Below the pieces are notes generated by a model. That model saw nothing but the letters and a program-made list of their open reading frames with translations. It was not told where the DNA came from and made no database searches. From IMG/VR virus record IMGVR_UViG_3300023443_000190, positions 8,564 through 72,563 of that record: 64,000 nt of DNA; one strand, 5' to 3'. Source of the stretch: a virus. Positions 25,308-38,604 of the stretch are shown here, piece by piece. Position 1 is the stretch's first letter. Each line of letters opens with the position of its first letter. A program made the position numbers and the translations under genes.

Positions 25308-25486
25308 CCAAACAACTCCTTCTCTAAAAGGTCAAAGAGCTTACATACTGATTTGCTCGGGGCAAAAACGCCGCCTTCGTATTGGCTGATTGTTTGCTGA
25401 TTGACGCCTGCTTTCTCACCCAATTCAGTTTGGGTAATTTCCAGCCGTTCCCTCAATCTGATAATATCTTCCGCTTCCCAAACCAC
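25295..25486 (-). CDS. Cro/XRE-family HTH regulator
   Basis: LRERLEITQTELGEKAGVNQQTISQYEGG; AGGAGG RBS. Confidence 0.88.
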   Translation of the reverse strand: MVWEAEDIIRLRERLEITQTELGEKAGVNQQTISQYEGGVFAPSKSVCKLFDLLEKELFGCSK

Positions 25487-26488
25487 TTATGCCTCCTGCC
25501 GTAGAGACTGGGCGGCTTCTAGCCAGTTGAAAAACTTATTCCGCCAGACCTGTAGGCCACCGCGTTCTTTACCGCTTTTTATGGCCTTCTCCCTAAGAAA
25601 GTCCAGTCGAAGCGGATCTTTGAGGAACTTAATCCCGTCTGAAAAGTCGGAGTATTCTCGACACAAATACCCGTCAGCCCCGTGATTGATTTGTTCGATC
25701 TGGCCGCCCTTCATATCGACAATAGGAATACACCCAGCCGCCTGGGCCTCACATACCGTTCTACCATAAGACTCGGTTAGTTTGGAGGACGAGTGCAAGT
25801 GAGCAGTCCAGCGATGAAACAAGTTTCGATTCTTCCACGCCGGTTCGTAAAACTTGGCATTTTCCCCGACCGCTTGACTTAATGGTTCGACGCGATGGTC
25901 TGGGCAGCCGACAAACTCCCATTGAACGTCGGGATGATTCTTGTGTAGGTAAGCGTAGAAATCGTAGAGATCATCAAGGCTCCATTTCTCGCGACCCATG
26001 TGACCGGACGTGCAAAGCTTACCGATCACAATCCCTTCGGCGCGTGGAATCGGCTCTGTCTGGGCGCAAGGTTGATAAAAGACATTCTCGGTATTTTGAT
26101 CGGTTAGGACGGCTAAGTGCATTGAGACCGACCATTCGATTGTGCATTTCTTCCTGGCGGATCGGTGTGTCTTTAATGCCGAATGTTCGTAGAAGATCGA
26201 GATAAAATCCCTCGACAGAAAGTTCGGCATCGTAGACGCGCCAGTGTTGTGAAAGATTACAACGTCTAGTGCGACAGATTCCAGATAGGCAGGCGTGATC
26301 TTACTCACCCGAGATATCTGACAACCGTAATGAGCCTTTTCTTCGTCCGAACATTCTCCGTCGCCAGCATTGACGAAAAGGATTTCGTGGTCCCAGTCTG
26401 GCAAGGCGCGTTTAATCGAATAGACGCAAGCCCCAGTTCCGCCGCAGATGTTTGGGATGTTAGCTATTTGGAGTAGCTTCATGGTCAT
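25487..26488 (-). CDS. GT-B glycosyltransferase (GT4-like)
   Basis: ESYGRTVCEAQAAGCIPIV..KGGQIEQINHGADGYL. Confidence 0.85.
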   Translation of the reverse strand: MTMKLLQIANIPNICGGTGACVYSIKRALPDWDHEILFVNAGDGECSDEEKAHYGCQISRVSKITPAYLESVALDVVIFHNTGASTMPNFLSRDFISIFYEHSALKTHRSARKKCTIEWSVSMHLAVLTDQNTENVFYQPCAQTEPIPRAEGIVIGKLCTSGHMGREKWSLDDLYDFYAYLHKNHPDVQWEFVGCPDHRVEPLSQAVGENAKFYEPAWKNRNLFHRWTAHLHSSSKLTESYGRTVCEAQAAGCIPIVDMKGGQIEQINHGADGYLCREYSDFSDGIKFLKDPLRLDFLREKAIKSGKERGGLQVWRNKFFNWLEAAQSLRQEA

Positions 26489-26939
26489 GGTATTTACTAT
26501 TCACTAGATCAAGGGCTACGATACAACCAAATTCAAAATCCCCTAACGGAGAATCGCCATTGGGTGCGTTGCAAAGCTGGGGTTGCATTCTTTTACTGTA
26601 TTCTTCCCACAAGCCCATATCTTCCAATTTTATTTGAACCGGAAAAAATGACCCATAGTATTTACTAAAACGAGGAACTTCTGCTGGGCCACAGCTTGAG
26701 CAATATGGGTATGACAACGGTTCGTCCCCATCGGATTTTCGGGCTTGATTTTTCTCAAAATGTAATATCCAATCCTCGTTTTCCAAACTTTCTGGCGGAA
26801 AGAACTGTCTAACCATGCACTTCTTTGGGTAGTTTTTTGTGCCTTTTATGGGGATTCCCCAAAACGCCACCCATTTCCAACCAAAGAATTCCTGTGCAAT
26901 GGCCCGATCTAAATCTGTTGTGTTCGGAACAATCATCAT
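26460..26939 (-). CDS. Phage ABA-sandwich-like protein
   Basis: DLDRAIAQEFFGWKW N-terminus. Confidence 0.55.
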   Translation of the reverse strand: MMIVPNTTDLDRAIAQEFFGWKWVAFWGIPIKGTKNYPKKCMVRQFFPPESLENEDWILHFEKNQARKSDGDEPLSYPYCSSCGPAEVPRFSKYYGSFFPVQIKLEDMGLWEEYSKRMQPQLCNAPNGDSPLGDFEFGCIVALDLVNSKYHDHEATPNS

Positions 26940-27463
26940 ATTCTCTTAATCTCCCCCCCAGCAGTTAAAACCCTGATTTCTATAAGTTGCCAGTTTTCTT
27001 TGAAGTGACGTTTGGGTTTGGCGGTTTGTTGTCCGCCTTTGAACTTTTTATGATAGCCGCCTTTGGGGTCGATCCCAACAGTCTCAAACTTTCGATAACC
27101 GTCCCGTAATAGCCAGCAAACAGCCGTCTCTCCAACCGACATGATTCTACCGAAGTATGGTAGAGATCGTTCTGGAGCGGTGTGTAGACAGTAAGTTCTG
27201 ACTTTATCCCTTGGAGCTGGGCTGGCTTCATGCGGAACTTTCTTTTTCCCCCTAACGTCGCAATGCAACCAAGTCGGCAACACAATCGTACCGACACCAT
27301 CCATTGTATCAATTTCTCCAAATGCTGACATATCATTAACGAACAACCAGTCGGCGTTTGGATAATAATTCACAGCCCCGTTCAGACAGGCTACCTTGCC
27401 ATCGAATTCAATCTGTCGAAAGGACGGGCCTTTTCCGACGATCAGGACTTTTTCACGATCCAT
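26936..27463 (-). CDS. Maf/DUF115 (CstII-fold-like) protein 3
   Basis: VLIVGKGPS, VACLNGA, AVCWLLRDGYRKFETVGID. Confidence 0.65.
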   Translation of the reverse strand: MDREKVLIVGKGPSFRQIEFDGKVACLNGAVNYYPNADWLFVNDMSAFGEIDTMDGVGTIVLPTWLHCDVRGKKKVPHEASPAPRDKVRTYCLHTAPERSLPYFGRIMSVGETAVCWLLRDGYRKFETVGIDPKGGYHKKFKGGQQTAKPKRHFKENWQLIEIRVLTAGGEIKRI

Positions 27464-27483
27464 CGAGAACTCCATTTCTGTGT

Positions 27484-28362
27484 TTACGCGAGTTCCAGTA
27501 GAGGTTTGATTGATTTCCACCACTGGGAGTCACGGATGTAATCGTGCCATATTTCTTGTGCCAGCTTACCCATCTGTATGGCCTTAGACACCGTGCATCC
27601 ATCGATAATGTCTAGTGCTGCGACTGTGGATTTGACATGAAAAGAAAATAATCTCCAATCGACAGTATGTGAAAAAGGCTTAATAAATCCCGGCGACACG
27701 ATAACCGGAACCCGACCTGCCGCCATAGCCTCGAAGATTCTACGGGTCGATGGGCCTGCTCCCCTTGGACACAAAGCGAAGTGAGAGTTAAGAAGATTGT
27801 CGCAAAATTCCAAGCCATATCGAGTTTTCTTTTTTTGATTTAGCCCTCTGCATGACGACCCTTTTCTCGGTATTGTGTTTGCATGATCGCCAAATCTTTT
27901 TATTACTTGTCCAATCATTTTTTTACGTTTCCATACCGACGTGTCTCCGCAAAACGACACAAGGTGTTGTGGTTTAACCGTTTCTGCCGAAAATAAATTG
28001 TAGCTCGGCGATCTTTGCGGAAACGGAACTGAATATGTATTGATTTCGTTATTTTGCTTTATAACCGATGGACGAAACATTACGCAATCAGCATAAAACC
28101 TTTCAGTTGAATCGGTGATTTCGAAGATTATATGCTTTTTTTCGTTGCCGTGCCAATAAGCCAGTTTCCTACACCCCTTCTTAATTCTCGATGGAACTTT
28201 AGCCACAGGAAAATATGTATTGCGCAGCCATCTCGGATAGAAATACCAATCACAATCTTCTGGGCCGAATTGTTGAAATATCTCTGCTTTTAGAGCTAGG
28301 ACAGGTTTTCTAAAATCTAGCCCACGAAATTTGGCCTCGTAAAAATAACACTTCATTGACAC
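27484..28362 (-). CDS. Exostosin-like (GT47) glycosyltransferase
   Basis: LVSFCG, SHFALCPRGAGPSTRRIFEAMAAGRVPVIVS. Confidence 0.85.
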   Translation of the reverse strand: MSMKCYFYEAKFRGLDFRKPVLALKAEIFQQFGPEDCDWYFYPRWLRNTYFPVAKVPSRIKKGCRKLAYWHGNEKKHIIFEITDSTERFYADCVMFRPSVIKQNNEINTYSVPFPQRSPSYNLFSAETVKPQHLVSFCGDTSVWKRKKMIGQVIKRFGDHANTIPRKGSSCRGLNQKKKTRYGLEFCDNLLNSHFALCPRGAGPSTRRIFEAMAAGRVPVIVSPGFIKPFSHTVDWRLFSFHVKSTVAALDIIDGCTVSKAIQMGKLAQEIWHDYIRDSQWWKSIKPLLELA

Positions 28363-28468
28363 TTACTTTCATTATGAATGACAGGACTCACACCACACAC
28401 CAGTCCAATTTCTTCCACTAAACATATGGCATGGAAGAATCTCGCCACTATGGTCTATGACCAGCGCC

Positions 28469-28903
28469 TCATTGCCAATTGTTGTCATTACAGATGTTCT
28501 TTAGTCGGTGTCTTCTCATGGCATACCAAACGTAATGTCCCCGATTCTCCAATGATTTTGAAATCATGTCCTGAATGTTTTTGTGCAGGTAGCCGTCAAT
28601 TACGTTAATTGTTCCTCTTGGGTGAAATCCCATCTCATGTTCCAGAAATTGCTTTGCGTACAACTTTCCATAACCCGCCTTATGCAAGTAATCGACGACA
28701 TTCCGTCGTTTTCTCATTCCGAATTCTTGGCAAGTTTTTAATATCTCTTTGTCTGGAAACCACAAATCCATTCTAATGTTGAATGAATCAATCTTGAAGA
28801 ACGGGATATTGCTGTTTAACAAAAGTTGTCTGCGCAAAGTCGTCTTACCATCATTTCCGCCCCCGCTAATCCAAAGTATTATTGTTTTCACGCAACACAC
28901 CAA
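28469..28903 (-). CDS. P-loop protein (kinase/sulfotransferase-like)
   Basis: WISGGGNDGKTT Walker-A-like motif. Confidence 0.55.
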   Translation of the reverse strand: MVCCVKTIILWISGGGNDGKTTLRRQLLLNSNIPFFKIDSFNIRMDLWFPDKEILKTCQEFGMRKRRNVVDYLHKAGYGKLYAKQFLEHEMGFHPRGTINVIDGYLHKNIQDMISKSLENRGHYVWYAMRRHRLKNICNDNNWQ

Positions 28904-29673
28904 TCTAAAGCGTGTTTCCAGTATTCATGCAAGCCGCCGTGAACCCGCCAGTCGTTCGATCCTTTTCGGCCAAGTTCCAAACCATGCTCAAGGTGTTCTT
29001 TGCAAACAGCCCCAGCCTCGCAAGCCGACTTCAATTCGTTCTCCCACAAGTAGGAAAGATGATGGTGAGGGTTGTACCAAGGCTGGTCGGTCTCAAAAGT
29101 GTAATGAAGCAGTTTAGTATCCGATTGCCAGTGATTAAAATCGTTCCAGCGTTTCGTCATGTGTTTGACTGGAAACCAATAACCGTGCATGATCCATTGA
29201 TATGCAAAGACTACTTTTTTGCCGGAATGCGGCACCCCTTTCGACTGAATGTGTTCCGATATCCATTCCTTGTTCCAAAGGGTTCTGTCGGCATCACCAC
29301 AATTTATGACCATAACCGATGTTTGTGGAACCTCTTCTCCTATAGATTCTGCCGTCTTGTCGTTGTGAAAAGCCAAACATGCAGCCTGATACATCCCTTT
29401 CCCAAAGTCCCACAATTCCTGAATGTCTCCCAAGACGAGTTGATCGGCATCCATGTAAATCGCCCTGCCTTCAAAGTTGCAGTATTGCGGAATCAAGAAT
29501 CGGCGTAGAGAAAACCCAGTCGCCTGATGCACATACTTTGAAATCAACCAAGGCTCATAATCTCCCATCGGAATGAATTCGACTTCCGCCTGGGTTCTCT
29601 TGCGTATGGAATGTTCGAGGACAAGTTCGGCGACTTTTGTTTTGGTTTCCGTCCCGCAAAAGATTCGGATCAT
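28888..29673 (-). CDS. GT8-like glycosyltransferase
   Basis: TGFSLRRFLIP, RAIYMDADQLV.GDIQELW, TSVMVINC, KLLHYT. Confidence 0.85.
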   Translation of the reverse strand: MIRIFCGTETKTKVAELVLEHSIRKRTQAEVEFIPMGDYEPWLISKYVHQATGFSLRRFLIPQYCNFEGRAIYMDADQLVLGDIQELWDFGKGMYQAACLAFHNDKTAESIGEEVPQTSVMVINCGDADRTLWNKEWISEHIQSKGVPHSGKKVVFAYQWIMHGYWFPVKHMTKRWNDFNHWQSDTKLLHYTFETDQPWYNPHHHLSYLWENELKSACEAGAVCKEHLEHGLELGRKGSNDWRVHGGLHEYWKHALDWCVA

Positions 29674-30326
29674 CTCTTTCTCCTGATAACAATCTTTGTT
29701 TGTTTGCCCTTATTGGCTTCGGTGATCGCTACAATGTCAAAGCCATCCGAAAGTATTGTCTCGATTTCCAGTCTGTTATGAATTGTGTAGGCCATGTCTG
29801 CTGAAGTTTTTTCTCCAAAATACCAAGTTGTCCATGCAAGCCCGTCGTCGTTTAGAATGCGCCATATTTCTCTAAGGTAATGTCGTGCATATTTCAATAG
29901 TCCAGTGTGAGTAAAAAAAGAGCTGCATATTACAAAATCGATGGAATTGTTAGAGACCGGAATCTTGTAGCTTAGAGTTTTTGTTTTTCCTGACGGGTTG
30001 TATCTTCTGTTGCTTATGTTTGAGTGTTCAAAATTAAATCGATCGTCGCCTCCGTGTTGCTTTCGATTGAATCCGATACAATACTTCTTCGCGTCTATTC
30101 CCAGATAGTTCCCATTCCATTCAGACCATTGTTCCAATCCAATCGCGTCTGCACCGATGCCACAACCTAAGTCGATAATCTTTGATTCATTTTTTATGTA
30201 GCCCCTTTCAATGTATTTATTGATTCTGGTAACTCCACGATCGTAAATTGATTTGTAACCGGCAACAGGCAGGGAGAGTGCAGGAGCTTTTGCCAGACGC
30301 TCTTTCCATTCTTTCTTAGTTCGCAT
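29670..30326 (-). CDS. Class I SAM-dependent methyltransferase (paralog A)
   Basis: IIDLGCGIG, YLGID, DFVICSSFFTH. Confidence 0.87.
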   Translation of the reverse strand: MRTKKEWKERLAKAPALSLPVAGYKSIYDRGVTRINKYIERGYIKNESKIIDLGCGIGADAIGLEQWSEWNGNYLGIDAKKYCIGFNRKQHGGDDRFNFEHSNISNRRYNPSGKTKTLSYKIPVSNNSIDFVICSSFFTHTGLLKYARHYLREIWRILNDDGLAWTTWYFGEKTSADMAYTIHNRLEIETILSDGFDIVAITEANKGKQTKIVIRRKR

Positions 30327-30999
30327 CTTCGGGCTTTCTCAATATGAGTTTCCATTGGCCTTTCATCATCTCTTTCTTTTCGGTACAACCACCCAAATCT
30401 TCAACCTCAAAATACCTGAGAAAGCTGAGAATGTCTCTTTCTCTCATCACAGTTCGTTTGTGCGAGTATTGAATCTGGTAAGGCGGGGATCGATACCATG
30501 TCGTGTAGGCGTATGCACCAGGTTTCATTACGCGCCACATCTCATCCAGATATTGTCGAGTTTCGGCAGGCGTACCAATGTGAGTAAAAAGCGAGTTGCA
30601 AGTCACCAAGTTAAAACGATTCTTCCCAAACGGAAACTTGTACTTCGACGCACTTAATTCTCCTTTCGGCCAGTAACGATCGCTTTTCACATCGGCGTGG
30701 ATGAATTGGAATCGCTCATCTTTTCCAAAGCAGGCTTGCCCCCAGTCAATGCTGCATCTTTGAACGTCAATCCCGACATACTTTTTGAACTTTCCGTCCT
30801 GCTCCAGTCCAATAGCCGTAGGGGCAGCACCGCATCCGATGTCGAGAACATTGTCCTTGTCACCGAGAATGCCATAACTTCGATATCGAACGATTCTCTC
30901 GATGCCGCGCTTGTATATTTCGTGGGAATCCCTTGTGCGAGGCATTAGAACTCGCGGAAGTTTATCAAGCCGTGAAAGCCATTCCCCTTTTTGTCTCAT
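30316..30999 (-). CDS. Class I SAM-dependent methyltransferase (paralog B)
   Basis: VLDIGCGAA, YVGIDV, NLVTCNSLFTH. Confidence 0.87.
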   Translation of the reverse strand: MRQKGEWLSRLDKLPRVLMPRTRDSHEIYKRGIERIVRYRSYGILGDKDNVLDIGCGAAPTAIGLEQDGKFKKYVGIDVQRCSIDWGQACFGKDERFQFIHADVKSDRYWPKGELSASKYKFPFGKNRFNLVTCNSLFTHIGTPAETRQYLDEMWRVMKPGAYAYTTWYRSPPYQIQYSHKRTVMRERDILSFLRYFEVEDLGGCTEKKEMMKGQWKLILRKPEDAN

Positions 31000-31022
31000 A
31001 GCCGTCTTGCTATATTAGAGTA

Positions 31023-31865
31023 ATGAAAATTGCTTTTACTGGAAGAACAAGCCTCGGAGGGGTAAGGATGCGAGGAGTTGCGTTGGCTCAATACATGGGT
31101 TATGACTTCATCGATTTGAGAGACTGGAAACACACCAATAAGATTTATGACGCGATTATTTTAATCAAATTCTCCCAAAACTTCAACAGTGATCTGATTG
31201 GCAAAAGCAAGGTTCTGATCTGGGATGCACTCGATTGTTTTGCAAAACACAAAAGAAACTACAAGCCTCATGCTTATTGGAGAAAGAGGTGCCATTCGAT
31301 TAAATGCAATGCCATAATTTCTACATCGCCTGCATGTCACAAATACATGAAAGAAACACTGAAAAGATCGGGCGTTCGAGTATTCCAGATTCCCCATCAT
31401 GCAGACCCTTCAATCGACTTTTCTTGGGGCAATCCCAATGGTCCTGTCGTCTATGTTGGTAATCCAGCCTATGTGAGTAAAAAAACCTTTGGTGTCGTTA
31501 AAAATGTGTGCAAGAAACTTGGGATCAAAGTCATATTCGACCATAGTTTCTTTTCCCAAAGGACGCTGAAGGGTGCCAGTCTAATGCTTCACCCAAGGCC
31601 ACACAAAGTTAATCATACCTTGAACATTCACTGTAAACCCCAGGTCAAAATTGCCAATGCTGCTGCTGCCAATTTGCCGGTCATAGGAACTCGCGATCCC
31701 TGTGTGACAAGTTTGTATGATGGCGTTGTAGGATGGAATGAGTATGACTCGTGGGAAACTCGTATTACGAACGCGTTAAACAGGCCGACTCTCAACAATC
31801 CCGAAACCTTGGAGTCATCGGCAGCTAAAATGTCATCAATGTTAGAAACTCTTCTTGGATCGTAA
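31023..31865 (+). CDS. GT-B-like glycosyltransferase (inverted block)
   Basis: GGVRMRG, KPQVKIANAAAANLPVI. Confidence 0.62.
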   Translation: MKIAFTGRTSLGGVRMRGVALAQYMGYDFIDLRDWKHTNKIYDAIILIKFSQNFNSDLIGKSKVLIWDALDCFAKHKRNYKPHAYWRKRCHSIKCNAIISTSPACHKYMKETLKRSGVRVFQIPHHADPSIDFSWGNPNGPVVYVGNPAYVSKKTFGVVKNVCKKLGIKVIFDHSFFSQRTLKGASLMLHPRPHKVNHTLNIHCKPQVKIANAAAANLPVIGTRDPCVTSLYDGVVGWNEYDSWETRITNALNRPTLNNPETLESSAAKMSSMLETLLGS

Positions 31866-31866
31866 T

Positions 31867-32418
31867 ATGTCTCACAAAGAACAGTTGGAATTCTGTGACC
31901 GAGTCAAGTCCACGTTTCCAGATTATTTCAACAAGTCTCGCGTTTTGGAGATAGGATCGAGAAATCTAAACGGTTCGATAAGAGGGCTGTTTACAGAATG
32001 TGACTATGTCGGCATCGATTGCATGAAAGGCAAAGACGTCGATGTTGTTTGCCTGGCTCATAAATATGAGGATGACCAAGAATCATTCGATGTTGTCTGT
32101 TGTGCCGAATCGCTGGAACACGATCCTTATGCTCCACAAACAATTCTCTCCATGCTGTCATTTCTCAAGTCAGGAGGGTTGTTCTTCTGTACTTGCGCTT
32201 CGACTGGGCGAAAGGAACATGGAACTGTCAGACAAAAAAAGTCGTGGAAACTTTGCGGGCCAGACCACAAGTATTACAAGAATGTCAAGCTAAGCACTTT
32301 GGTTCAATGGATGCTTTACTGCGGGTTTGATTTCGATTCGTTGCATTACGAATACAACGAATCATCAAGCGATCTTTATTGCTATGCAATCAAAGCGATA
32401 TCACCACATTCCTTTTGA
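31867..32418 (+). CDS. Class I SAM-dependent methyltransferase (inverted block)
   Basis: VLEIGSRNLNGS, YVGID..GKDVD, FDVVCCAESLEHDP, LKSGGL. Confidence 0.87.
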   Translation: MSHKEQLEFCDRVKSTFPDYFNKSRVLEIGSRNLNGSIRGLFTECDYVGIDCMKGKDVDVVCLAHKYEDDQESFDVVCCAESLEHDPYAPQTILSMLSFLKSGGLFFCTCASTGRKEHGTVRQKKSWKLCGPDHKYYKNVKLSTLVQWMLYCGFDFDSLHYEYNESSSDLYCYAIKAISPHSF

Positions 32419-33055
32419 AGAGACCGACTAAATCGCCACCGATCTCCTGTAGGATTCGACCAGTCGTTTTGAATGCTCTTGTCGTTGAACCTACGCTGTG
32501 TTCTTCTAATATGATGACTGGTCGGTGTTTACGCAGGACTTCCATCGCTCCGTCAACTACTTCCCATTCCATACCTTGGACATCAATCTTTATGAGAGAC
32601 AGTCCAGATTTATCGAAAAAATCCTCAATGCTATCGAGCGAGATCATGTCTGCCGTTATCGCCGTCTTTTCAAAGTCCATTAAATGCCGACGATGACCGC
32701 TACTCTTTTGGCCATTCGGATCGCACATGTGAAGCTGCCCTTCATGATCGCCCACAGCTTTTTGTGTTGCATTGACCTCAAAAGGTGTGTTAGCCATTAA
32801 GCATTCATAGGTATCGTAAAATGGCTCAAAAGCCAACACCTTCGGAAAATACTGAGCAATCCGACGCGAGAACAAGCCAATGTTTGCACCAACATCGATA
32901 GCACAACCGGAACTTGTTCCAGTCGTCCGATTCGAGATCGCATTCATCGCACATTGGATTTCCAGTTCCATGTAACACTTGTGTCTTCCAGCCTTAATCA
33001 ACGGAGTCCATTCCGTGTCTTCGTCTGGAACGTATAATTTGCCTACTTTTCTCAT
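32390..33055 (-). CDS. FkbM-family methyltransferase
   Basis: AIDVGANIG, VLAFEP, LIKIDVQGMEWEVVDGA, RPVIILE. Confidence 0.9.
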   Translation of the reverse strand: MRKVGKLYVPDEDTEWTPLIKAGRHKCYMELEIQCAMNAISNRTTGTSSGCAIDVGANIGLFSRRIAQYFPKVLAFEPFYDTYECLMANTPFEVNATQKAVGDHEGQLHMCDPNGQKSSGHRRHLMDFEKTAITADMISLDSIEDFFDKSGLSLIKIDVQGMEWEVVDGAMEVLRKHRPVIILEEHSVGSTTRAFKTTGRILQEIGGDLVGLFKRNVVISL

Positions 33056-33798
33056 GTCTTGAATAAAGGCTTTCTTTGTTCGGCGACGACATTGATGTAA
33101 CGTCTGGGATATTCGCTTTTACCGCGAACAGAAACACCGTGAATCGAATGCTTTGAATTCATAAATCCCACCAATACGTTCTGTTTGTATTTCACAGTCT
33201 TAACCAATTCCACGTCATCTTCTCTGATCTGGTTTTGTGGACTGTGTTTGAACTTTCCGCCCTTGTGTTGGTACAAACCGAAGTCGCCGCCAGTGCTATT
33301 GTCGGCTGGGTCTCTGAAATACCAGCACAAGGCATAAAGTTTTCTCACGCTATCGAAGTGAGGGCCTCGAACAGTAGTTCCGCCGCTAGTCGGAGTGTTG
33401 ATTACAAACTGACAATCTGTCGTTAATTCCTGATCGATAGATTTGTCACGAATTGCAGGGTACGAATCAATTCTGCGAGCATATTCATTCGAGCCGTGAC
33501 ATTCTGCAAAAGGCTTAGCAAATATCTGGAGCATTGCATGGAAAAACAGTCCAGTTGATATTTCCATAAACAGACTTTTCCAGACAGCATTCACAGATTT
33601 CGATTCTAAGGCATCCAGGCACGACAATCTCACCGCAATGTTTTCCCCAGCCTCGCTCGAATTTATGTGTGGAAATCTTGAAAACAGGTATTGGTAGAGA
33701 TCAAAGTCATTCAATGGGTCTTCAATCACAAAATGAGGATTCTCCCCGTCGATGTATTCCACTTTTGGGGTTTTCTGTAGCAAGTTGTAATTAAGCAT
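33052..33798 (-). CDS. 2OG-Fe(II) oxygenase
   Basis: GPHFD (HxD), SIHGV, RRYINV. Confidence 0.82.
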   Translation of the reverse strand: MLNYNLLQKTPKVEYIDGENPHFVIEDPLNDFDLYQYLFSRFPHINSSEAGENIAVRLSCLDALESKSVNAVWKSLFMEISTGLFFHAMLQIFAKPFAECHGSNEYARRIDSYPAIRDKSIDQELTTDCQFVINTPTSGGTTVRGPHFDSVRKLYALCWYFRDPADNSTGGDFGLYQHKGGKFKHSPQNQIREDDVELVKTVKYKQNVLVGFMNSKHSIHGVSVRGKSEYPRRYINVVAEQRKPLFKT

Positions 33799-34546
33799 GA
33801 TCGACCTTCAGCAACTTCTCGGATACGTCTTTGAGGTATTTACCCTGAGTCGGTTGGATGAATTTTGAATCTTGTTTTTTCTTCATGGCGCAGACAATTA
33901 TTACATTGGGATACTTCGCACCAGTCCTGCGAGTCTCATCCATCGAGACAGATTGAATGGCTTCCGTAATTTCATTTGACTTTGTTTTTGGAATTATCTC
34001 TTTCATATTATTTGGTGGTACTGACAAGATTGACCTTTCAAATCCCCAGCGGTTTGCCAGAGAAAACATTACTATCTCGTAATTATTTGCACGGGCAAGA
34101 TCAACAAACAATATGGGGTGAAAGCTGTAGAAAGAATGGTTGATCCAATTGATGAACGGCAGGATGTGAAGCATGATTCCGCCGACTTTGCAATATCCAT
34201 GGGCATTATAAAATATCGCGTCTTGGTTAAAACAATGCTCGCCAGTTCCATTATTTGTTACCAAGTCATGTTGTGAGATCATCATCGCCCTTTGATTCAA
34301 ATCACTTAATTCAGCGCCGTGTTTTCCATTCACATCAAGACATTTATAGTCGGAATATCCCATCCCATCGTAAAATACTTTCGACGACTGACCGTTGATT
34401 TTTGACGGCTTTGCAATCCCGACGGGAACCCTGAAATCATCAGGCAAATTGATTGTCTGGTTGCCGAATTCCAAAACGGACGGACTCCCCTGAAAACTCG
34501 GTGTCAAAGCAGCAACAGTTCTCGCCATAATCGGATTAAAAGTCAT
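33791..34546 (-). CDS. SAM-methyltransferase-fold protein
   Basis: VLEFGNQ, YKCLDVNG, DLVTNNGTGEHCFNQ, CKVGGIMLHILP. Confidence 0.75.
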   Translation of the reverse strand: MTFNPIMARTVAALTPSFQGSPSVLEFGNQTINLPDDFRVPVGIAKPSKINGQSSKVFYDGMGYSDYKCLDVNGKHGAELSDLNQRAMMISQHDLVTNNGTGEHCFNQDAIFYNAHGYCKVGGIMLHILPFINWINHSFYSFHPILFVDLARANNYEIVMFSLANRWGFERSILSVPPNNMKEIIPKTKSNEITEAIQSVSMDETRRTGAKYPNVIIVCAMKKKQDSKFIQPTQGKYLKDVSEKLLKVDHA

Positions 34547-35160
34547 CGAGTATTCCGTTCGTAAATTGTGGAATGATACTCACTGAAACCAGGTGGCTTC
34601 TCTTTTGTGTAATAGTAAGCGGCAATGCTTTTTCGATCTTTCTTGACTGGTTCGGGCACGCCATGCCAAGCATTTTCATTGTAAGGAAAAGCGACCAGTC
34701 GGTTAAATAAAGGTGCGATAGATGCCGTGTGTGGTTTTCGCCCAAGTATCAATTCGCCTTTATCATCCTCTTTCCATTTATCATTGAGAAAGAGAAGTGC
34801 ATTCACGCGACGATAAAGACCTTCCTTATTTTGATTGAAATCGACGTGCATATCTAGTTTTGTGCCAACAGGCATCCAATGAAGGCCACCGTCAAAGTTG
34901 GTTTCGTCGCAAACTAAACCAAGAATCCCAAACTCTCTCTCCAGAGTTTCAATCATGGCTTTTGATTTCAGAATCTCCGCTATCCTGATGGTGCTATCAG
35001 GGAACCCACTGCACATAGAAAGTTTTCCACAAGAACTTGCATACCACAAAGAATCGTCTTTATCAGGCCATTCAGAAACAACGTTGTGGAGTCTCGACAC
35101 TGTTAAACGATCATCCCAGACCGTATGGCGAAATGGCCAGCTAGAAGGAAAGTGGATCAA
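34543..35160 (-). CDS. 2OG-Fe(II) oxygenase (prolyl-hydroxylase-like)
   Basis: GGLH..PVGTKLDMHVDFN, RRVNALLFLN, WHG, RKSIAAYYY. Confidence 0.88.
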   Translation of the reverse strand: MIHFPSSWPFRHTVWDDRLTVSRLHNVVSEWPDKDDSLWYASSCGKLSMCSGFPDSTIRIAEILKSKAMIETLEREFGILGLVCDETNFDGGLHWMPVGTKLDMHVDFNQNKEGLYRRVNALLFLNDKWKEDDKGELILGRKPHTASIAPLFNRLVAFPYNENAWHGVPEPVKKDRKSIAAYYYTKEKPPGFSEYHSTIYERNTR

Positions 35161-35942
35161 TTAAACATCTCCCTGACTCTTCCGTGTTCGCCTTTGTTAT
35201 GCGTAATGTAATGTTTGAGAAGCGAATACTGGACAACATGCCCGTCGTTCTTTGATACTCGACCAACGATGTCTCGACAGTCAAATGTACGGGTCGCTTG
35301 ATAATAGACAAAAGAATCATCCCATCGATTCCAAGCTTTGAATTGACCGGAATCATAATATCCTCTCATCTTTTCAAAGACCCGCTTGCCTTTTCGCTGC
35401 ATGTTGTATCCAACAATCCCACATTCAGGAACTAAACGCGGCCCCTTGAGGAAGAAGCCGTCATGTCGTTCATACAAAGACCGAATGTTTTTTGTCTCAA
35501 CCTGACCCTTGAATATACAGTCGCAATCGATCCAGATCATGTCTTTTGACTTTGGGAATTGGACAATCGCGGCATTCAGCGTCACAACCTTACGGAACCA
35601 ACGGCAACAGTTGCGATTGAACCAACTCCAATGGCAGCCTTTGACGTGATTGTTGCTCGGAGGTCTTCCTGCGTCTTTGCAATCGCAAGGCTTGGTTTCT
35701 CCACCCCATTCTTCTGGAATCACATCTTTGTTGGATTGAAGCCAGTCGTGCAAATAAAGGTCTTCATCCAAGTCGTAGAGGAAGATATTGTCGTTTCGCG
35801 GCAAGAGTACAATATCAGAACCCTTGAATCCTTCATGCCCGACAAACATGATTCCATCGGTATTAGTCCTGACGAACGACTCAAGCAATTTCTCGCCTGA
35901 GACTTCGTAGAGTTCTTTGGTGAATGACGTTACCCAGATCAT
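35157..35942 (-). CDS. GT-A-like glycosyltransferase (DxD)
   Basis: VTSF, WFRKV, MIWIDCDCIF, ECGIVGYN, WDDSFV. Confidence 0.7.
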   Translation of the reverse strand: MIWVTSFTKELYEVSGEKLLESFVRTNTDGIMFVGHEGFKGSDIVLLPRNDNIFLYDLDEDLYLHDWLQSNKDVIPEEWGGETKPCDCKDAGRPPSNNHVKGCHWSWFNRNCCRWFRKVVTLNAAIVQFPKSKDMIWIDCDCIFKGQVETKNIRSLYERHDGFFLKGPRLVPECGIVGYNMQRKGKRVFEKMRGYYDSGQFKAWNRWDDSFVYYQATRTFDCRDIVGRVSKNDGHVVQYSLLKHYITHNKGEHGRVREMFN

Positions 35943-36208
35943 TGTTCATACATCTTTCTTGTGACTTCTATCGCCCATTCTTGTGATTCTTTTATGTCAA
36001 CCAGTTCGTCAAGAAGAATGGAAATCCCTTTGGCAATGGCGATGGACAAATTGAGTGTAGTATCATCTTTTCTATCTTCCCAATGACTCCCATCGACGTT
36101 TCCACACTTTAATTCACCTGAGAGCTTTCTTATGTCGGACACGCTATTCACTGTAATCCCTTTCTCGAACATATCCCGAAGTGTCTTCCGGCTCAGGAAA
36201 TCCATCAA
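35939..36208 (-). CDS. Hypothetical protein
   Basis: ATGA coupling at its 3' end; start uncertain. Confidence 0.5.
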   Translation of the reverse strand: MMDFLSRKTLRDMFEKGITVNSVSDIRKLSGELKCGNVDGSHWEDRKDDTTLNLSIAIAKGISILLDELVDIKESQEWAIEVTRKMYEQ

Positions 36209-36851
36209 GATTGTGGAACTTCTTCAGCCGTTCGTAATCTTCAGTCTCCCGACCCAGACCTAAGAACGGAGACAAAGTATAAAACCTGATCCCGTAATGA
36301 TCAGTCAACTTATCTCTCACAATAGAAGAACATTCGTAGTATTCGTCGTAGATGTCCTGTGGTGAGAGACCGTGTCGCCTGACATGCTGCTCGTGGGCGT
36401 GATGATCTCCTCCAAACGAGTTCATGTCACATCCGACGAGAATGGCCGTCTTACAGCCCATTTTGGCAGCCAGGCACATTGCTGTCGCCTGAATGCCACG
36501 ACCGCAGTAAAGGCGGTTATCTTCTGAGGTGAGCGGGGAATAGTCGTGAAGGTCTTTGTTGCTTGTGAAGATACAGACATCGGGATCGTTTTCCTTGAGT
36601 CGCCTGCTCCATGAGTCGGGCGGGCCTTTTGCTTTGGTAATCCATGAGTCGGATTTTATGCTTCCTTCTGGTATTATTTCAGGGTGAATTGTCAGATGAA
36701 ACTTAGTCTTAAAATGGCGGTAAGACTGATTCAATCCAATCGACCTTCTGTTACGAAAAAAGTGAGGATCAAATACGCGAAGGGACGGCCCTGTACCGAT
36801 TATGTAGCAGGTTTGACCCTCCCATCCACCATGCAATGAAGTCACTTTCAT
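36144..36851 (-). CDS. Maf/DUF115 (CstII-fold-like) protein 2
   Basis: CYIIGTGPSL, SIGLNQS, AMCLAAKMGCKTAILVGCDM. Confidence 0.75.
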   Translation of the reverse strand: MKVTSLHGGWEGQTCYIIGTGPSLRVFDPHFFRNRRSIGLNQSYRHFKTKFHLTIHPEIIPEGSIKSDSWITKAKGPPDSWSRRLKENDPDVCIFTSNKDLHDYSPLTSEDNRLYCGRGIQATAMCLAAKMGCKTAILVGCDMNSFGGDHHAHEQHVRRHGLSPQDIYDEYYECSSIVRDKLTDHYGIRFYTLSPFLGLGRETEDYERLKKFHNLDGFPEPEDTSGYVRERDYSE

Positions 36852-37456
36852 AATCCATACTTCTCCTTAAACGCAGCCTTATCAGCCGCAATCAACTCCC
36901 CTCGATTTGGACACAGCTTCTTATTGTGGGCAGTCTTATGACCGAGATGTTTGAGAGGTAAATCGACTTGACATAATGAACCGCCTTCTTTCAAGGCTCT
37001 GATCTGAAAGTCGGTGTCTTGGAAGTAGAGTTTGAACCGTTCGTCGAATCCGCCGAGTTTTGTCCAAAGCGATTTGCTGAAGCAAAGGAACCAGCCTTGA
37101 AGCAGTTTGCGACCCTCATAAAGAGGTTCACGCCTTTTCTTCGCCCCGACGATTTCGTTTTCAGATTTTGGATTGCATAGATCAATGAATTTTCCTTTGC
37201 AGATTATGTCGTTATTCATAAGGATTATGTTTTTGCGATTAGACAGCCTTATTCCAAGGTTCCAAGCAGCAGTCAGTCCTCGCTTGTCGTTTTTGATAGC
37301 AAACACATTCTTTGCGATCACCTTAGAGTAATAATCTTGGCTTGGCCCATCATCTATTATAAAAATATCAACATCACGTTCGTGTTTTCTGATTCCTTCA
37401 ATCAGACTTATTGTTAAATCATCGTTTCCTCGCTGTGGTATCACAATCGTCGTCAT
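36848..37456 (-). CDS. GT2-family glycosyltransferase
   Basis: IVIP, IIDDG, GLTAAWNLG, ILMNNDI, GGFDERFKLYFQDTDF. Confidence 0.9.
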   Translation of the reverse strand: MTTIVIPQRGNDDLTISLIEGIRKHERDVDIFIIDDGPSQDYYSKVIAKNVFAIKNDKRGLTAAWNLGIRLSNRKNIILMNNDIICKGKFIDLCNPKSENEIVGAKKRREPLYEGRKLLQGWFLCFSKSLWTKLGGFDERFKLYFQDTDFQIRALKEGGSLCQVDLPLKHLGHKTAHNKKLCPNRGELIAADKAAFKEKYGL

Positions 37457-38604
37457 CCTATTTCATCCACCTTCATTTCGCGGTTCAGTTCGAGAGCCTT
37501 TTGAGCAATCGGATCAGGCTTTTTCTCCGGTTCTTCTTTCCCACCTTTATCAAGCACACCCCTACCGTAGATGTCCATGTCTTTGTGAAATGGAAGTCCT
37601 TCGTCCGGCTTTGGCTCGACTGTTAATCGTCCCGACGTATACTCTTCTAACACATTCCCTACCTGTTTGTCAATAGCATTTGCAGCTTCCACTTCGGTCA
37701 TGTAAGGGAAGAACGCATTCAGTCTGGAATTTGGCGTACAGGAAACAATCTTCACGCCGTTTAACGAATGGTTTCTTCGCGACAATCTGAGGTATTGGAT
37801 TCGATCCCAATAATGAACGTCGGTTGTAACAGCCGAACTGAACCGCTTAACTTCTTCGCAGCCATACTGGGCTTCGCGTTCGACGGCTTCCATTGCTGCG
37901 GCGACTTCTTCGTTGTCTTTTCCAATACCTTTCGCCTTACACATATCCCTGAAATCGATCAGGCGATCAGACCAGTAGCATTCAGGTTGCTTTTCGCCAG
38001 TCTGTTTCTCAAACTTGACTTGTCCATTCTCATACTCCACGCCTTTTTTGCGAGCCAAATCTATTTGTGCCTGACTTGGTCTCACAATCATATCCACACC
38101 GACGCAGTAGAAAGTACGAAACCCCAACTGAAAACAGATATCAATGGCTTGGATAAAGCTATCCAGAACATTCAGAATGGATTTGGCTTTGATGTCAAAG
38201 AAGTGTTCGTAATAACGGTGTTCCACATCGACAAAGAACGTATTCGGGCAATCGCACATTTTGTACGAGGTACCAGGAACCAAGTCTAAATGCTTTCCGC
38301 CTTTGAGAAACTTGGTAATCGAACTGTCCTTGAACATCGTCCCGAACCAACGAGGGGTCGGATCATAGCTTGTCCAGAAAGTTGGCTTGATTAAATAACC
38401 TTCACCGTCACGTCCTCTGCCTGCGTAGTTCATTGCCATTTTGCAGGCTGGTGATCTTTGGACGATCTCCGTATCAATTGATCGGATGCCTGGCCCAGCA
38501 CCTACGATCCAGACGGATGAGGCTTCAGTTCCGGCATATTGATTTTTGAATTGTTCCGAGCAGTCGTATTTACGTTTATCCGTAGTGCATCTGTAAAAGA
38601 GCAT
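37453..38604 (-). CDS. Maf/DUF115 (CstII-fold-like) protein 1, 383 aa
   Basis: VWIVGAGPG, KMAMN, DSFIQAIDICFQLGFRTFYCVGVDM; start MLFYRC just after the Ser-rich gene. Confidence 0.72.
   Translation of the reverse strand: MLFYRCTTDKRKYDCSEQFKNQYAGTEASSVWIVGAGPGIRSIDTEIVQRSPACKMAMNYAGRGRDGEGYLIKPTFWTSYDPTPRWFGTMFKDSSITKFLKGGKHLDLVPGTSYKMCDCPNTFFVDVEHRYYEHFFDIKAKSILNVLDSFIQAIDICFQLGFRTFYCVGVDMIVRPSQAQIDLARKKGVEYENGQVKFEKQTGEKQPECYWSDRLIDFRDMCKAKGIGKDNEEVAAAMEAVEREAQYGCEEVKRFSSAVTTDVHYWDRIQYLRLSRRNHSLNGVKIVSCTPNSRLNAFFPYMTEVEAANAIDKQVGNVLEEYTSGRLTVEPKPDEGLPFHKDMDIYGRGVLDKGGKEEPEKKPDPIAQKALELNREMKVDEIG

What the first reader, a model, noticed from the sequence alone, without database searches (positions are those of the whole stretch)
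26936..38604. Three divergent Maf/DUF115 (CstII-fold) paralogs but no nonulosonate synthesis genes
Seen: three ORFs (37453-38604, 36144-36851, 26936-27463) share I(V/I)G.GP, a following N motif and a G....VG.D motif. The largest abuts the Ser-rich gene. No neuB/pseI or CMP-transferase-like gene is seen. Known: this fold covers Maf flagellin glycosyltransferases, GT42 sialyltransferases and MptE. Inference: the phage diverts host CMP-activated pseudaminic, legionaminic or sialic acids onto its own proteins.
Basis: partly seen in the sequence, partly recalled or inferred. Interest (0 to 1): 0.7.

Follow-up and report, generated by a model that had tools for sequence, protein, structure and literature searches.

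The report
Three Maf-like enzymes beside serine-rich phage tail

Summary
Three minus-strand ORFs share the GxGP(S/G), N and GxD motifs: P1 (37453-38604), P2 (36144-36851) and P3 (26936-27463). Profile comparisons link them transitively (P2-P1 E 1.9e-11; P3-P2 E 4.5e-9). Predicted folds match Maf, CstII/Cst-I, GT29, MptE and DUF115 proteins. The whole DTR-bounded genome has no NeuB, CMP-sugar synthetase or any other nucleotide-sugar synthesis gene.

- **Acceptor.** The order small tail protein, Tal-like hub with Ser-rich C-tail, P1, GT2 recurs. The hub lies upstream of the P1 homologue in 78 of 84 loci, mostly Planctomycetaceae chromosomes. This points to the Ser-rich tail as P1's acceptor.
- **Donor.** Pse/Leg/Neu is unlikely. 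Only 4 of 49 Planctomycetaceae genomes with a P1 orthologue have NeuB, against 26 of 72 without one. KdsB-like genes are near-universal. CMP-Kdo from the host is my leading candidate, by inference only.

Nothing here is biochemically shown. This scan has already noted Maf-like genes beside Ser-rich phage proteins, and the same chromosomal Planctomycetaceae cluster, on other DNA. I found no published description.

The parts
37453..38604 (-). P1, 383 aa: Maf-like DUF115-fold enzyme. Catalytic core is about residues 1-175 plus 285-317, with an extra inserted and C-terminal region. Motifs: GAGPG 35-39, N59, D81, G169-V-D171.
   Evidence: AF2 model pLDDT 90.6. Best solved match is the Maf 5mu5 central domain: Z 14.8, 197 aa, rmsd 3.4. 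Next come Cst-I 11.3, MptE 10.9, CstII 10.6 and GT29 about 10; the next unrelated chain scores 4.4. AFDB hits are mostly 'DUF115 domain-containing protein'. 51 homologues were found, named ones from Planctomycetaceae.
36144..36851 (-). P2, 235 aa: minimal DUF115/MptE-like domain. Motifs: GTGPS 19-23, N41, H56, G140-C-D142, H150-H151.
   Evidence: Pfam MptE-like scores 30.0 bits, below the 34.6 cut-off. PHROG 4603 'alpha-2,3-sialyltransferase' E 7.6e-10. 12 of 14 family members carry precomputed PF01973. The family profile weakly hits CstII, Cst-I and Maf in the PDB, E 0.03-0.18. Atlas structural neighbours are DUF115 proteins, some with PF27901 WaaZ_KDO_III.
26936..27463 (-). P3, 175 aa: smallest DUF115-like domain. 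Motifs: GKGPS 10-14, N28, N43-D44, S109, G130-I-D132, Y137.
   Evidence: No Pfam, PHROG or NCBIfam hit. hhalign of its family (A4) against the P2 family gives 96%, E 4.5e-9. AF2 model pLDDT 71.6. CstII Z 9.8 over 162 of 175 aa; thiamin pyrophosphokinase N-domain Z 10.5 over 114 aa. AFDB hits are mainly DUF115 proteins. 169 cluster representatives at E <= 1e-3.
38624..40417 (-). Tal-like tail-tip/hub protein, 597 aa. N-domain is about residues 1-395. The C-terminal 202 aa (encoded at about 38627-39232) are 41% Ser and 75% S/G/T/A/D. This is the proposed acceptor.
   Evidence: Atlas neighbours carry Sipho_Gp37, Prophage_tail or baseplate gp16. The gene follows the tape-measure gene and a 153-aa gene. 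The N-domain is 38% identical to chromosomal Planctomycetaceae proteins that also end in Ser-rich tails.
36848..37456 (-). GT2-family glycosyltransferase, 202 aa, directly downstream of P1. It is part of the conserved four-gene module.
   Evidence: Pfam Glycos_transf_2 at 28.1 bits, above the cut-off. A homologue lies just downstream of the P1 homologue in 52 of 84 loci.
40418..40879 (-). 153-aa tail protein between the tape measure and the Tal-like gene, in the position of a distal tail protein. It is the first gene of the conserved module.
   Evidence: A homologue lies upstream of the Tal-like gene in 67 of 84 loci. The Dit assignment rests on position only (inference).
24888..36143 (.). Rest of the soluble glycan-building and tailoring island in which P2 and P3 sit. 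It holds a cupin, GT4, GT47, a P-loop protein, GT8, several SAM and FkbM methyltransferases, two 2OG-Fe(II) oxygenases and unassigned ORFs.
   Evidence: Pfam hits. None of the 23 island proteins has a TM-like hydrophobic stretch. The same layout occurs in a related 19.9-kb contig.

Best explanation
P1, P2 and P3 are three soluble, very divergent members of the DUF115 / MptE-like fold superfamily. This superfamily also holds Maf flagellin glycosyltransferases and resembles the GT42 and GT29 sialyltransferases.

P1 is the Maf-like, protein-directed member. It most likely O-glycosylates serines in the 202-residue Ser-rich C-terminal extension of the Tal-like tail-tip protein encoded 19 nt upstream. 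This would happen in the cytoplasm before or during tail assembly. The adjacent GT2 works on the same acceptor.

P2 and P3 are minimal catalytic domains. They most likely add further residues to the growing glycan. The other soluble GTs (GT4, GT8, GT47) and the methyltransferases of the island extend and tailor it. The product would be a mucin-like, glycosylated tail-tip appendage.

The phage encodes no sugar-activating enzyme, so every donor comes from the host. By analogy with all characterised glycosyltransferases of this fold, the donor for the DUF115 enzymes should be a CMP-activated ulosonic acid. Most Planctomycetaceae that carry the P1 module lack NeuB but have KdsB. The most likely donor is therefore CMP-Kdo rather than CMP-Pse, CMP-Leg or CMP-Neu5Ac.

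Shown here: fold, motifs, homology, conserved synteny, absence of donor-synthesis genes, and the NeuB anti-correlation. Inferred: enzymatic activity, acceptor, donor, and the division of labour among the three paralogs.
For: Fold:
- P1 model against Maf 5mu5: Z 14.8, with a clear gap to unrelated chains at 4.4.
- P3 model against CstII: Z 9.8 over 162 of 175 aa.
- P2: Pfam MptE-like and PHROG sialyltransferase hits, plus DUF115 structural neighbours.
- AFDB hits for P1 and P3 are dominated by DUF115 proteins, with single hits named KDO transferase and Maf family (P1) and putative sialyltransferase (P3).

Homology: hhalign E 1.9e-11 and 4.5e-9.

Catalytic residue: the Asp of the GxD motif aligns with M. 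magneticum Maf D415 (alignment). That residue is reported as critical for activity (bioRxiv 10.1101/2020.06.03.131540). It is D171 in P1, D142 in P2 (invariant) and D132 in P3. P1 D81 is invariant in 36 sequences and lies at the spacing expected for Maf E324.

Acceptor link:
- The order g153, Tal-like, P1, GT2 sits on one strand. The Tal-like gene is upstream of P1 in 78 of 84 loci, and GT2 is downstream in 52 of 84.
- The Tal-like proteins carry C-terminal extensions of median 215 aa with median 33% Ser.

Soluble machinery: no TM-like segment in 23 island proteins.

Donor:
- The phage has no NeuB, CTP_transf_3, DegT, Epimerase_2, Polysacc_synt_2 or NTP_transferase.
- NeuB occurs in 4 of 49 P1-positive genomes against 26 of 72 P1-negative ones.
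- A strong KdsB-like CTP_transf_3 occurs in 113 of 121 genomes and 44 of 49 P1-positive ones.
- C. botulinum and G. kaustophilus Maf transfer Kdo to Ser/Thr in E. coli (bioRxiv 10.1101/2020.06.03.131540; abstract of PMC11339370).
- A related phage with P2- and P1-like genes encodes its own CTP_transf_3 cytidylyltransferase.
Against: - No biochemical or proteomic data exist for any member of these three families.
- P1 and P3 have no Pfam hit, and P2 is below the Pfam cut-off.
- The same fold includes ATP-dependent pyrophosphokinases. MptE gives Z 10.9 for P1, and thiamin pyrophosphokinase gives Z 10.5 for P3.
- The CstII phosphate-binding tyrosines and catalytic His188 are not evidently conserved. 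In the weak alignment, Y156 aligns with N144 and Y162 with H150 of P2.
- The NeuB profile concerns chromosomal orthologues 32-40% identical to P1, not the phage's unknown host, and says nothing about P2 or P3.
- E. coli WaaZ did not match the three profiles significantly.
- A distant phage (24% identical P1-like gene) has a Tal without a Ser-rich tail.
- Synteny shows a functional link, not that the Ser-rich tail is the acceptor.
Confidence: 0.5

Rival explanations
1. The three enzymes take host CMP-pseudaminic, CMP-legionaminic or CMP-sialic acid and put it on phage proteins.
For: - Characterised Maf enzymes natively use nonulosonic acids, and P1's best solved match is Maf.
- P2 hits a PHROG annotated as sialyltransferase.
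- 30 of 121 sampled Planctomycetaceae-family genomes do have a strong NeuB, so some possible hosts could supply such donors.
- One complete genome with the module has NeuB next to a second cytidylyltransferase.
Against: - Only 4 of 49 genomes with a P1 orthologue have NeuB, a significant depletion.
- Four of five complete genomes with the module lack NeuB.
- The phage carries no part of a nonulosonate pathway.
- The three contigs inspected around P2 homologues show no NeuB within 10 kb.
Confidence: 0.15
2. One or more of the three proteins are ATP-dependent pyrophosphokinases or kinases of the MptE / thiamin pyrophosphokinase type. They would act on a small-molecule alcohol, a sugar or Ser hydroxyls, and would not be glycosyltransferases.
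For: - MptE HPPK (8sd5) matches P1 at Z 10.9.
- Thiamin pyrophosphokinase catalytic domains give the top Z for P3: 10.5, rmsd 2.5, 114 aa.
- The only Pfam name obtained is MptE-like.
- The conserved acidic residues would also suit Mg-ATP chemistry (inference).
Against: - For P1, Maf clearly leads (Z 14.8 against 10.9).
- For P3, CstII covers 162 of 175 residues against 114 for the kinase.
- The context is glycosyltransferases and methyltransferases with no pterin, folate or thiamin genes.
- Relatives of P3 are fused to GT8 and rhamnosyltransferase domains.
- The AFDB neighbours with an informative name are mostly DUF115 proteins.
Confidence: 0.08
3. The island, including P2 and P3 and possibly P1, remodels host envelope glycans during infection or lysogeny, for example by adding Kdo or other sugars to LPS or capsule. 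The purpose would be superinfection exclusion or receptor masking, not virion decoration.
For: - Phage-encoded glycosyltransferases that alter host serotype are well known (summarised in PMC12619734).
- The P2 and P3 families have no demonstrated link to a virion protein.
- Atlas neighbours of P2 include clusters with the WaaZ Kdo-transferase family.
Against: - No flippase, polymerase, ligase or any membrane protein is present among 23 island proteins.
- P1 and GT2 are syntenic with the tail-tip gene in 78 and 52 of 84 loci.
- In other phages the MptE-like genes again follow the tail genes.
Confidence: 0.1

Closest known systems
Maf (motility accessory factor) flagellin O-glycosyltransferases, e.g. 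Magnetospirillum magneticum Maf (PDB 5mu5) and Clostridium botulinum CbMaf
   Same: - The central DUF115 domain fold matches: P1 Z 14.8, 197 aa.
- The GxGPS loop and the critical Asp of GxD (Maf D415) are shared.
- Both are soluble cytoplasmic enzymes encoded beside a Ser/Thr-bearing structural protein that later assembles into an extracellular filament or appendage.
- CbMaf and GkMaf can use CMP-Kdo.
   Different: - P1 is 383 aa and aligns only to Maf residues 255-517. The Maf N- and C-terminal domains are missing.
- The neighbour is a phage tail-tip protein, not flagellin.
- No nonulosonate pathway travels with it, and NeuB is depleted in genomes carrying the orthologue.
- Identity over the structurally aligned residues is about 17%.
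GT42 sialyltransferases CstII / Cst-I of Campylobacter jejuni (PDB 1ro7, 2p2v)
   Same: - Same modified GT-A fold: P1 Z 10.6-11.3; P3 Z 9.8 over 162 of 175 aa.
- The N-terminal GNGPS loop, Asn31 and the G-I-D154 segment align with the three shared motifs.
- P2 and P3 are of similar minimal size.
   Different: - No match to the GT42 Pfam family.
- Profile E-values are only 0.03-0.07.
- CstII Tyr156, Tyr162 and His188 are not evidently conserved.
- CstII acts on lipooligosaccharide glycans, and the donor here is unlikely to be sialic acid.
Mycobacteriophage virion glycosylation (Freeman et al. 2023, Cell Host Microbe; cited in PMC12619734)
   Same: Phage-encoded soluble glycosyltransferases decorate the phage's own structural proteins at C-terminal regions.
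   Different: - There the targets are capsid and tail-tube subunits. I recall, and did not check, that the enzymes are ordinary GT-A/GT-B transferases.
- Here the proposed target is a Ser-rich extension of the tail-tip protein.
- The enzymes here include three DUF115/Maf-like proteins plus a 14-kb tailoring island.
- Nothing here is experimentally shown.
MptE, archaeal 6-hydroxymethyl-7,8-dihydropterin pyrophosphokinase (PDB 8sd5), and thiamin pyrophosphokinase catalytic domains
   Same: They share the Rossmann-like core: P1 Z 10.9 and P3 Z 10.5. The Pfam family that P2 touches is named after MptE.
   Different: These are ATP-dependent kinases of small-molecule alcohols in cofactor pathways. 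The genes here sit in a glycosyltransferase and methyltransferase island behind phage tail genes, with no cofactor-pathway genes.

Membership tests
DUF115 / MptE-like fold superfamily (Pfam PF01973 and remote relatives) | Score at or above the Pfam PF01973 gathering cut-off (34.6 bits) | tested here: not met
   P2 scores 30.0 bits. P1 and P3 give no hit at E <= 0.1. However, 12 of 14 P2-family proteins and 2 of 51 P1-family proteins carry precomputed PF01973 hits. The three are therefore filed as remote superfamily relatives, not as Pfam family members in the strict sense.
DUF115 / MptE-like fold superfamily (Pfam PF01973 and remote relatives) | Modified GT-A/Rossmann fold shared by Maf, CstII and MptE | tested here: met
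   P1: Maf Z 14.8, Cst-I 11.3, MptE 10.9, next unrelated chain 4.4. P3: CstII Z 9.8, TPK 10.5. P2: Atlas model TM 0.71-0.74 to DUF115 clusters. AFDB hits are mostly DUF115.
DUF115 / MptE-like fold superfamily (Pfam PF01973 and remote relatives) | N-terminal GxGPS loop, downstream Asn, and GxD/E after the long helix | tested here: met
   All are present in the three proteins and conserved in their families. They align with each other in hhalign and with CstII and Maf.
Maf flagellin nonulosonic-acid glycosyltransferases | Catalytically critical acidic residues (M. magneticum Maf E324 and D415) | tested here: inconclusive
   D415 aligns with the GxD/E acid of the P1 family. That acid is D171 in P1, D142 in P2 and D132 in P3. 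The E324 equivalent (P1 D81, invariant) is assigned from spacing only, not from a superposition.
Maf flagellin nonulosonic-acid glycosyltransferases | Three-domain architecture of about 600-700 aa with N- and C-terminal domains flanking DUF115 | tested here: not met
   P1 is 383 aa and aligns to 5mu5 residues 255-517 only. P2 is 235 aa and P3 is 175 aa.
Maf flagellin nonulosonic-acid glycosyltransferases | Genomic association with flagellin and a Pse/Leg/Neu biosynthesis locus | tested here: not met
   The neighbours are phage tail genes. The phage has no NeuB or CMP-synthetase. NeuB is present in only 4 of 49 genomes with a P1 orthologue.
Maf flagellin nonulosonic-acid glycosyltransferases | Transfer of a CMP-activated ulosonic acid to Ser/Thr of a protein | not testable with these tools
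   This needs co-expression with mass spectrometry, or in vitro assays.
GT42 sialyltransferases (CstII/Cst-I) | CMP-phosphate-binding Tyr156/Tyr162/Arg129 and general base His188 | tested here: inconclusive
   In the weak profile alignment (E 0.03), Y156 aligns with N144 and Y162 with H150 of P2. His188 is not aligned to a conserved His. The P3 family has a nearly invariant Tyr137 in this segment. The alignments are too weak to decide.
GT42 sialyltransferases (CstII/Cst-I) | Significant sequence match to the family | tested here: not met
   No GT42 Pfam family hit at E <= 0.1. PDB profile E-values are 0.03-0.18.
MptE-type pterin pyrophosphokinase | ATP- and pterin-binding residues, and a folate or methanopterin pathway context | tested here: inconclusive
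   The fold is shared at lower Z than Maf for P1. The residue-level comparison could not be made because no coordinates or reference alignment were available. No cofactor-pathway genes are in the context.
WaaZ-type Kdo transferases (Pfam PF27901) | Profile-level similarity to WaaZ | tested here: inconclusive
   PF27901 is not in the local Pfam copy. hhalign of E. coli K-12 WaaZ against the three family profiles gives 4-12% probability, although the same motifs are paired. 26-43% of the members of two Atlas clusters near P2 carry PF27901.

The most novel reading that the evidence does not exclude
The phage uses the host's essential CMP-Kdo pool to build Ser-O-linked Kdo, possibly oligo-Kdo or Kdo-capped methylated glycans, on a mucin-like extension of its tail tip. 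One protein-directed Maf-like enzyme (P1) and two minimal DUF115 enzymes (P2, P3) would act in sequence. This would be the first natural protein O-Kdo glycosylation, seen so far only as a promiscuous activity of Maf in E. coli. The same P1, GT2 and Ser-rich hub module has been kept by about 40% of sampled Planctomycetaceae inside a chromosomal phage-tail-like gene cluster.
Probability: 0.2. Interest if true: 0.8.

Novelty: new variant of a known kind. Interest (0 to 1): 0.6.

Why it matters
Virion glycosylation has been shown experimentally only for mycobacteriophages. Maf-type enzymes are known only as flagellin modifiers. Two things would follow if a phage tail tip carries a serine-rich, sugar-acid-decorated appendage made by Maf-like enzymes from host donors.

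First, it would extend flagellin-type O-glycosylation to viruses. It would give a new model for how phages tune adsorption, stickiness or evasion of host surface defences.

Second, it would supply small soluble Ser-directed glycosyltransferases for glyco-engineering.

The NeuB anti-correlation also turns the donor question into a simple test. Co-expression in ordinary E. coli, which supplies CMP-Kdo, should suffice if the Kdo reading is right.

Tried and rejected
- **Complex prediction.** Complex prediction of the full Tal-like protein (alignment A5) with P1 (A2) gave score 0.00 and no verdict. This is neither for nor against binding.
- **Megablast.** A search of the island against 50,697 phage records found no match.
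- **Single-sequence PDB searches.** The three proteins gave nothing useful.
- **Direct P1-P3 comparison.** The family profiles are not significantly similar. Their relation rests on P2 and on the fold.
- **WaaZ.** E. coli WaaZ against the three profiles was not significant, and PF27901 is absent from the local Pfam copy. A WaaZ-type Kdo-transferase assignment therefore remains a lead only.
- **Weak NeuB hits.** Hits of 35-39 bits in four complete Planctomycetaceae genomes looked like NeuB above the cut-off. The one I scanned in Pfam is a DAHP synthase I family protein. I therefore used E <= 1e-30 for the profile.
- **Literature.** Searches for MptE structure papers and for planctomycete phage or GTA descriptions returned nothing directly relevant. 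The A. baumannii KdoT paper concerns a GT-B enzyme and is not related.
- **DNA hypermodification.** I considered this as the island's role and set it aside for P1-P3, because of the tail-gene synteny and the protein-directed Maf similarity. It was not tested directly.

Full report
**What is there**

The window is bases 8564-72563 of a 73,678-bp IMG/VR virus record. Its ends repeat 144 bp, so the phage genome is complete and terminally redundant.

Almost all genes run on the minus strand. After a 1034-aa tape-measure gene (40879-43983) come a 153-aa gene (40418-40879) and a 597-aa gene (38624-40417). A roughly 14-kb block of soluble sugar-handling genes follows:
- P1 (37453-38604, 383 aa)
- GT2 (36848-37456)
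- P2 (36144-36851, 235 aa)
- two 2OG-Fe(II) oxygenases
- an FkbM-type and several SAM methyltransferases
- GT8
- a P-loop protein
- GT47 (27484-28362)
- P3 (26936-27463, 175 aa)
- GT4 (25487-26488)
- a cupin

None of the 23 island proteins has a TM-like hydrophobic stretch.

**Checking the observation**

The three ORFs and the three motifs are as described.
- P1: GAGPG 35-39, N59, G169-V-D171.
- P2: GTGPS 19-23, N41, G140-C-D142.
- P3: GKGPS 10-14, N28, G130-I-D132.

Pairwise BLASTP is marginal, so I built family alignments:
- A1: P2 family, 14 sequences.
- A2: P1 family, 36 of 51 hits.
- A3 and A4: P3 family. The word-indexed search gave 5 sequences. The exhaustive HMM search gave 169 representatives at E <= 1e-3, of which 60 were aligned.

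hhalign gives A1-A2 at 97.3%, E 1.9e-11, and A4-A1 at 96%, E 4.5e-9. Both alignments pair all three motifs. A2-A3/A4 is not significant. The three are therefore related transitively and are very divergent.

**Fold**

- **P1.** The AF2 model has pLDDT 90.6. Its best solved match is the central domain of M. magneticum Maf (5mu5): Z 14.8, rmsd 3.4, 197 aa. Then come Cst-I 11.3, MptE HPPK 10.9, CstII 10.6 and GT29 sialyltransferases about 10. The next unrelated chain scores 4.4.
- **P3.** The model has pLDDT 71.6. It matches CstII at Z 9.8 over 162 of 175 aa, and thiamin pyrophosphokinase catalytic domains at Z 10.5 over 114 aa.
- **AFDB.** Among cluster representatives, both models hit mainly proteins named 'DUF115 domain-containing protein'.
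- **P2.** It touches Pfam MptE-like at 30.0 bits, below the 34.6 cut-off, and PHROG 4603 'alpha-2,3-sialyltransferase' at 7.6e-10. Its profile weakly finds CstII, Cst-I, a P. multocida sialyltransferase and Maf in the PDB. Its Atlas model has DUF115 proteins as structural neighbours, and 26-43% of the members of two such clusters carry PF27901 WaaZ_KDO_III.

**Motifs mapped to function**

The first motif aligns with the CstII G-N-G-P-S loop and the second with CstII Asn31. The third aligns with CstII G152-I-D154 and with Maf G413-V-D415. Maf D415 and E324 are reported as critical for activity (bioRxiv 10.1101/2020.06.03.131540). P1 D81, invariant in its family, sits at the spacing expected for E324. 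That assignment is an inference, not a superposition.

**No donor synthesis in the phage**

Six-frame HMM searches of the whole genome found no NeuB, CTP_transf_3, DegT, Epimerase_2, Polysacc_synt_2 or NTP_transferase at E <= 1. All the control genomes behaved as expected.

**The strongest new evidence: a conserved module**

The N-terminal ~395 residues of the 597-aa protein resemble siphovirus tail-tip/hub (Tal) proteins such as Sipho_Gp37, Prophage_tail and baseplate gp16 (Atlas). Its last 202 residues are 41% Ser.

P1 homologues are common in Planctomycetaceae genomes. I fetched 80 loci from one-genome-per-species contigs plus 4 viral contigs. A tblastn survey gave these results:
- A homologue of the Tal-like N-domain lies upstream of the P1 homologue in 78 of 84 loci, on the same strand wherever the strand was checked.
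- A homologue of the 153-aa protein precedes it in 67 loci.
- A homologue of the GT2 follows in 52 loci.
- In 76 of the 78 loci the gap between the Tal-like stop and the P1 match is under 1 kb.
- The Tal-like proteins carry C-terminal extensions of median 215 aa with median Ser content 0.33. Searches give two examples.

A close relative of the phage has the same island layout, including all three paralogs. Its P1 is 94% identical, P3 91% and P2 75%. Other phages with P2 homologues again place a 315-387-aa MptE-like gene after the tail genes. GT2 and methyltransferase genes follow in at least one of them, and a second, P2-like MptE-like gene lies a few kb further on. One of these phages encodes its own CTP_transf_3 cytidylyltransferase.

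This pattern argues that P1, with GT2, works on the Ser-rich tail-tip protein, as Maf works on flagellin.

**The donor**

This is established pathway knowledge: NeuB, PseI and LegI all fall in PF03102.

In 121 sampled genomes of the family:
- 49 have a strong single-copy P1 orthologue.
- 30 have a strong NeuB.
- Only 4 have both (odds ratio 0.16, p 4.8e-4).

Of five complete genomes carrying the module, only one has NeuB, with a second cytidylyltransferase beside it. The weak 'NeuB' hit I scanned from another of these genomes is a DAHP synthase. A strong KdsB-like CTP_transf_3 is present in 113 of 121 genomes and in 44 of the 49.

All glycosyltransferases of this fold whose donor is known, to my knowledge, use CMP-activated ulosonic acids. 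C. botulinum and G. kaustophilus Maf transfer Kdo to Ser/Thr when CMP-Kdo is what the cell offers (abstract of PMC11339370). CMP-Kdo is therefore the most economical donor.

This is an inference with three caveats. The profile concerns chromosomal orthologues only 32-40% identical to P1. The phage's host is unknown. P2 and P3 may use other donors.

**Rivals**

- **Kinase or pyrophosphokinase.** This reading cannot be excluded from the fold alone, since MptE and TPK are within the hit lists. P1 is clearly nearer to Maf, however, and the context is purely glycan-related.
- **Host envelope remodelling.** This is disfavoured by the absence of any membrane component and by the tail-gene synteny.
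- **Complex prediction.** The prediction for P1 with the Tal-like protein gave no verdict and is not used as evidence.

**Comparison with what is known, and novelty**

Published phage virion glycosylation concerns mycobacteriophage capsid and tail-tube subunits (Freeman et al. 2023, as cited in PMC12619734). Maf enzymes are described only for flagellins. I found no paper on phage Maf-like enzymes or on this planctomycete module.

This scan's own earlier notes had already flagged Maf-like genes next to Ser-rich phage proteins, and the same chromosomal cluster in at least 78 Planctomycetaceae species. My survey reached the same picture independently.

This window adds three things:
- a complete free phage carrying the module;
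- the expansion to three DUF115 paralogs inside a 14-kb tailoring island;
- the NeuB anti-correlation, which redirects the donor hypothesis.

I rate it a new variant of a known kind, namely Maf-type protein O-glycosylation. Interest is moderate to high, with all function still inferred.

Noticed in passing
L087:2993-11059 and L089:4300-11095 (Planctomycetaceae chromosomes); 49 of 121 sampled family genomes: The P1 orthologue ends a compact, single-copy phage-tail-like cluster. Small genes include a Neck1/tail-completion homologue. They are followed by a 275-aa protein with weak tape-measure hits, a 147-aa protein, the Tal-like hub with a Ser-rich tail, P1, and often GT2. Unrelated housekeeping genes flank the cluster. 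In one genome a Phage_portal_2 gene sits 2 kb away across a UvrD gene. The cluster looks like a domesticated tail-like or GTA-like element rather than an ordinary prophage.
   Followed up: partly
contig of P0005, L095:3523-10202, L096:5418-10714: Other uncultured phages repeat the pattern of tape measure, tail genes and an MptE-like gene of 315-387 aa, then an NAD-dependent epimerase/dehydratase and further on a second, P2-like MptE-like gene. A GT2 and a methyltransferase follow the first MptE-like gene in one contig. One phage also encodes a CTP_transf_3 cytidylyltransferase. In L095 a 213-aa protein with 36% Ser in its first 80 residues lies directly upstream of the MptE-like gene.
   Followed up: partly
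window 26936-27463 and its family (P0066-P0220): The P3 family has 169 cluster representatives at E <= 1e-3 and no Pfam, PHROG or NCBIfam model. Most members are stand-alone proteins of 180-220 aa. A few are fused to GT8 or a putative rhamnosyltransferase domain. Structural neighbours of the P3 model include larger proteins named for sulfotransferase or SAM-methyltransferase domains. It looks like an uncurated mini-DUF115 family.
   Followed up: partly
L091:1477-2571 and similar places in G001-G003: The Pfam NeuB model scores DAHP synthase I family proteins at 35-39 bits, above its 22.1-bit gathering cut-off. The one checked has a 270-bit DAHP_synth_1 hit. Naive NeuB presence/absence calls in these genomes would be wrong.
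   Followed up: yes
L086:5415-11020 (IMG/VR contig, 71.6 kb): A distant phage has a 24%-identical P1-like gene. Its Tal-like protein ends in a Cys-rich rather than a Ser-rich region. Two further genes (412 aa, Cys-rich; 403 aa) lie between it and the P1-like gene. The P1 family is therefore not always paired with a Ser-rich tail.
   Followed up: no
window 27484-28362 and 28469-28903: There is an exostosin-type GT47 glycosyltransferase (64 bits). A 144-aa P-loop protein with no family match lies next to it. The related 19.9-kb contig keeps the GT47 but lacks the P-loop gene and the two plus-strand genes at 31023-32418.
   Followed up: no
L003:6335-7369 (9.4-kb contig binned in a Planctomycetaceae MAG): This is the closest named-genome P1 homologue (45% identity), yet it has no Tal-like or 153-aa homologue in the 6.3 kb upstream. 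It is probably a phage contig with a different layout binned into the MAG.
   Followed up: no
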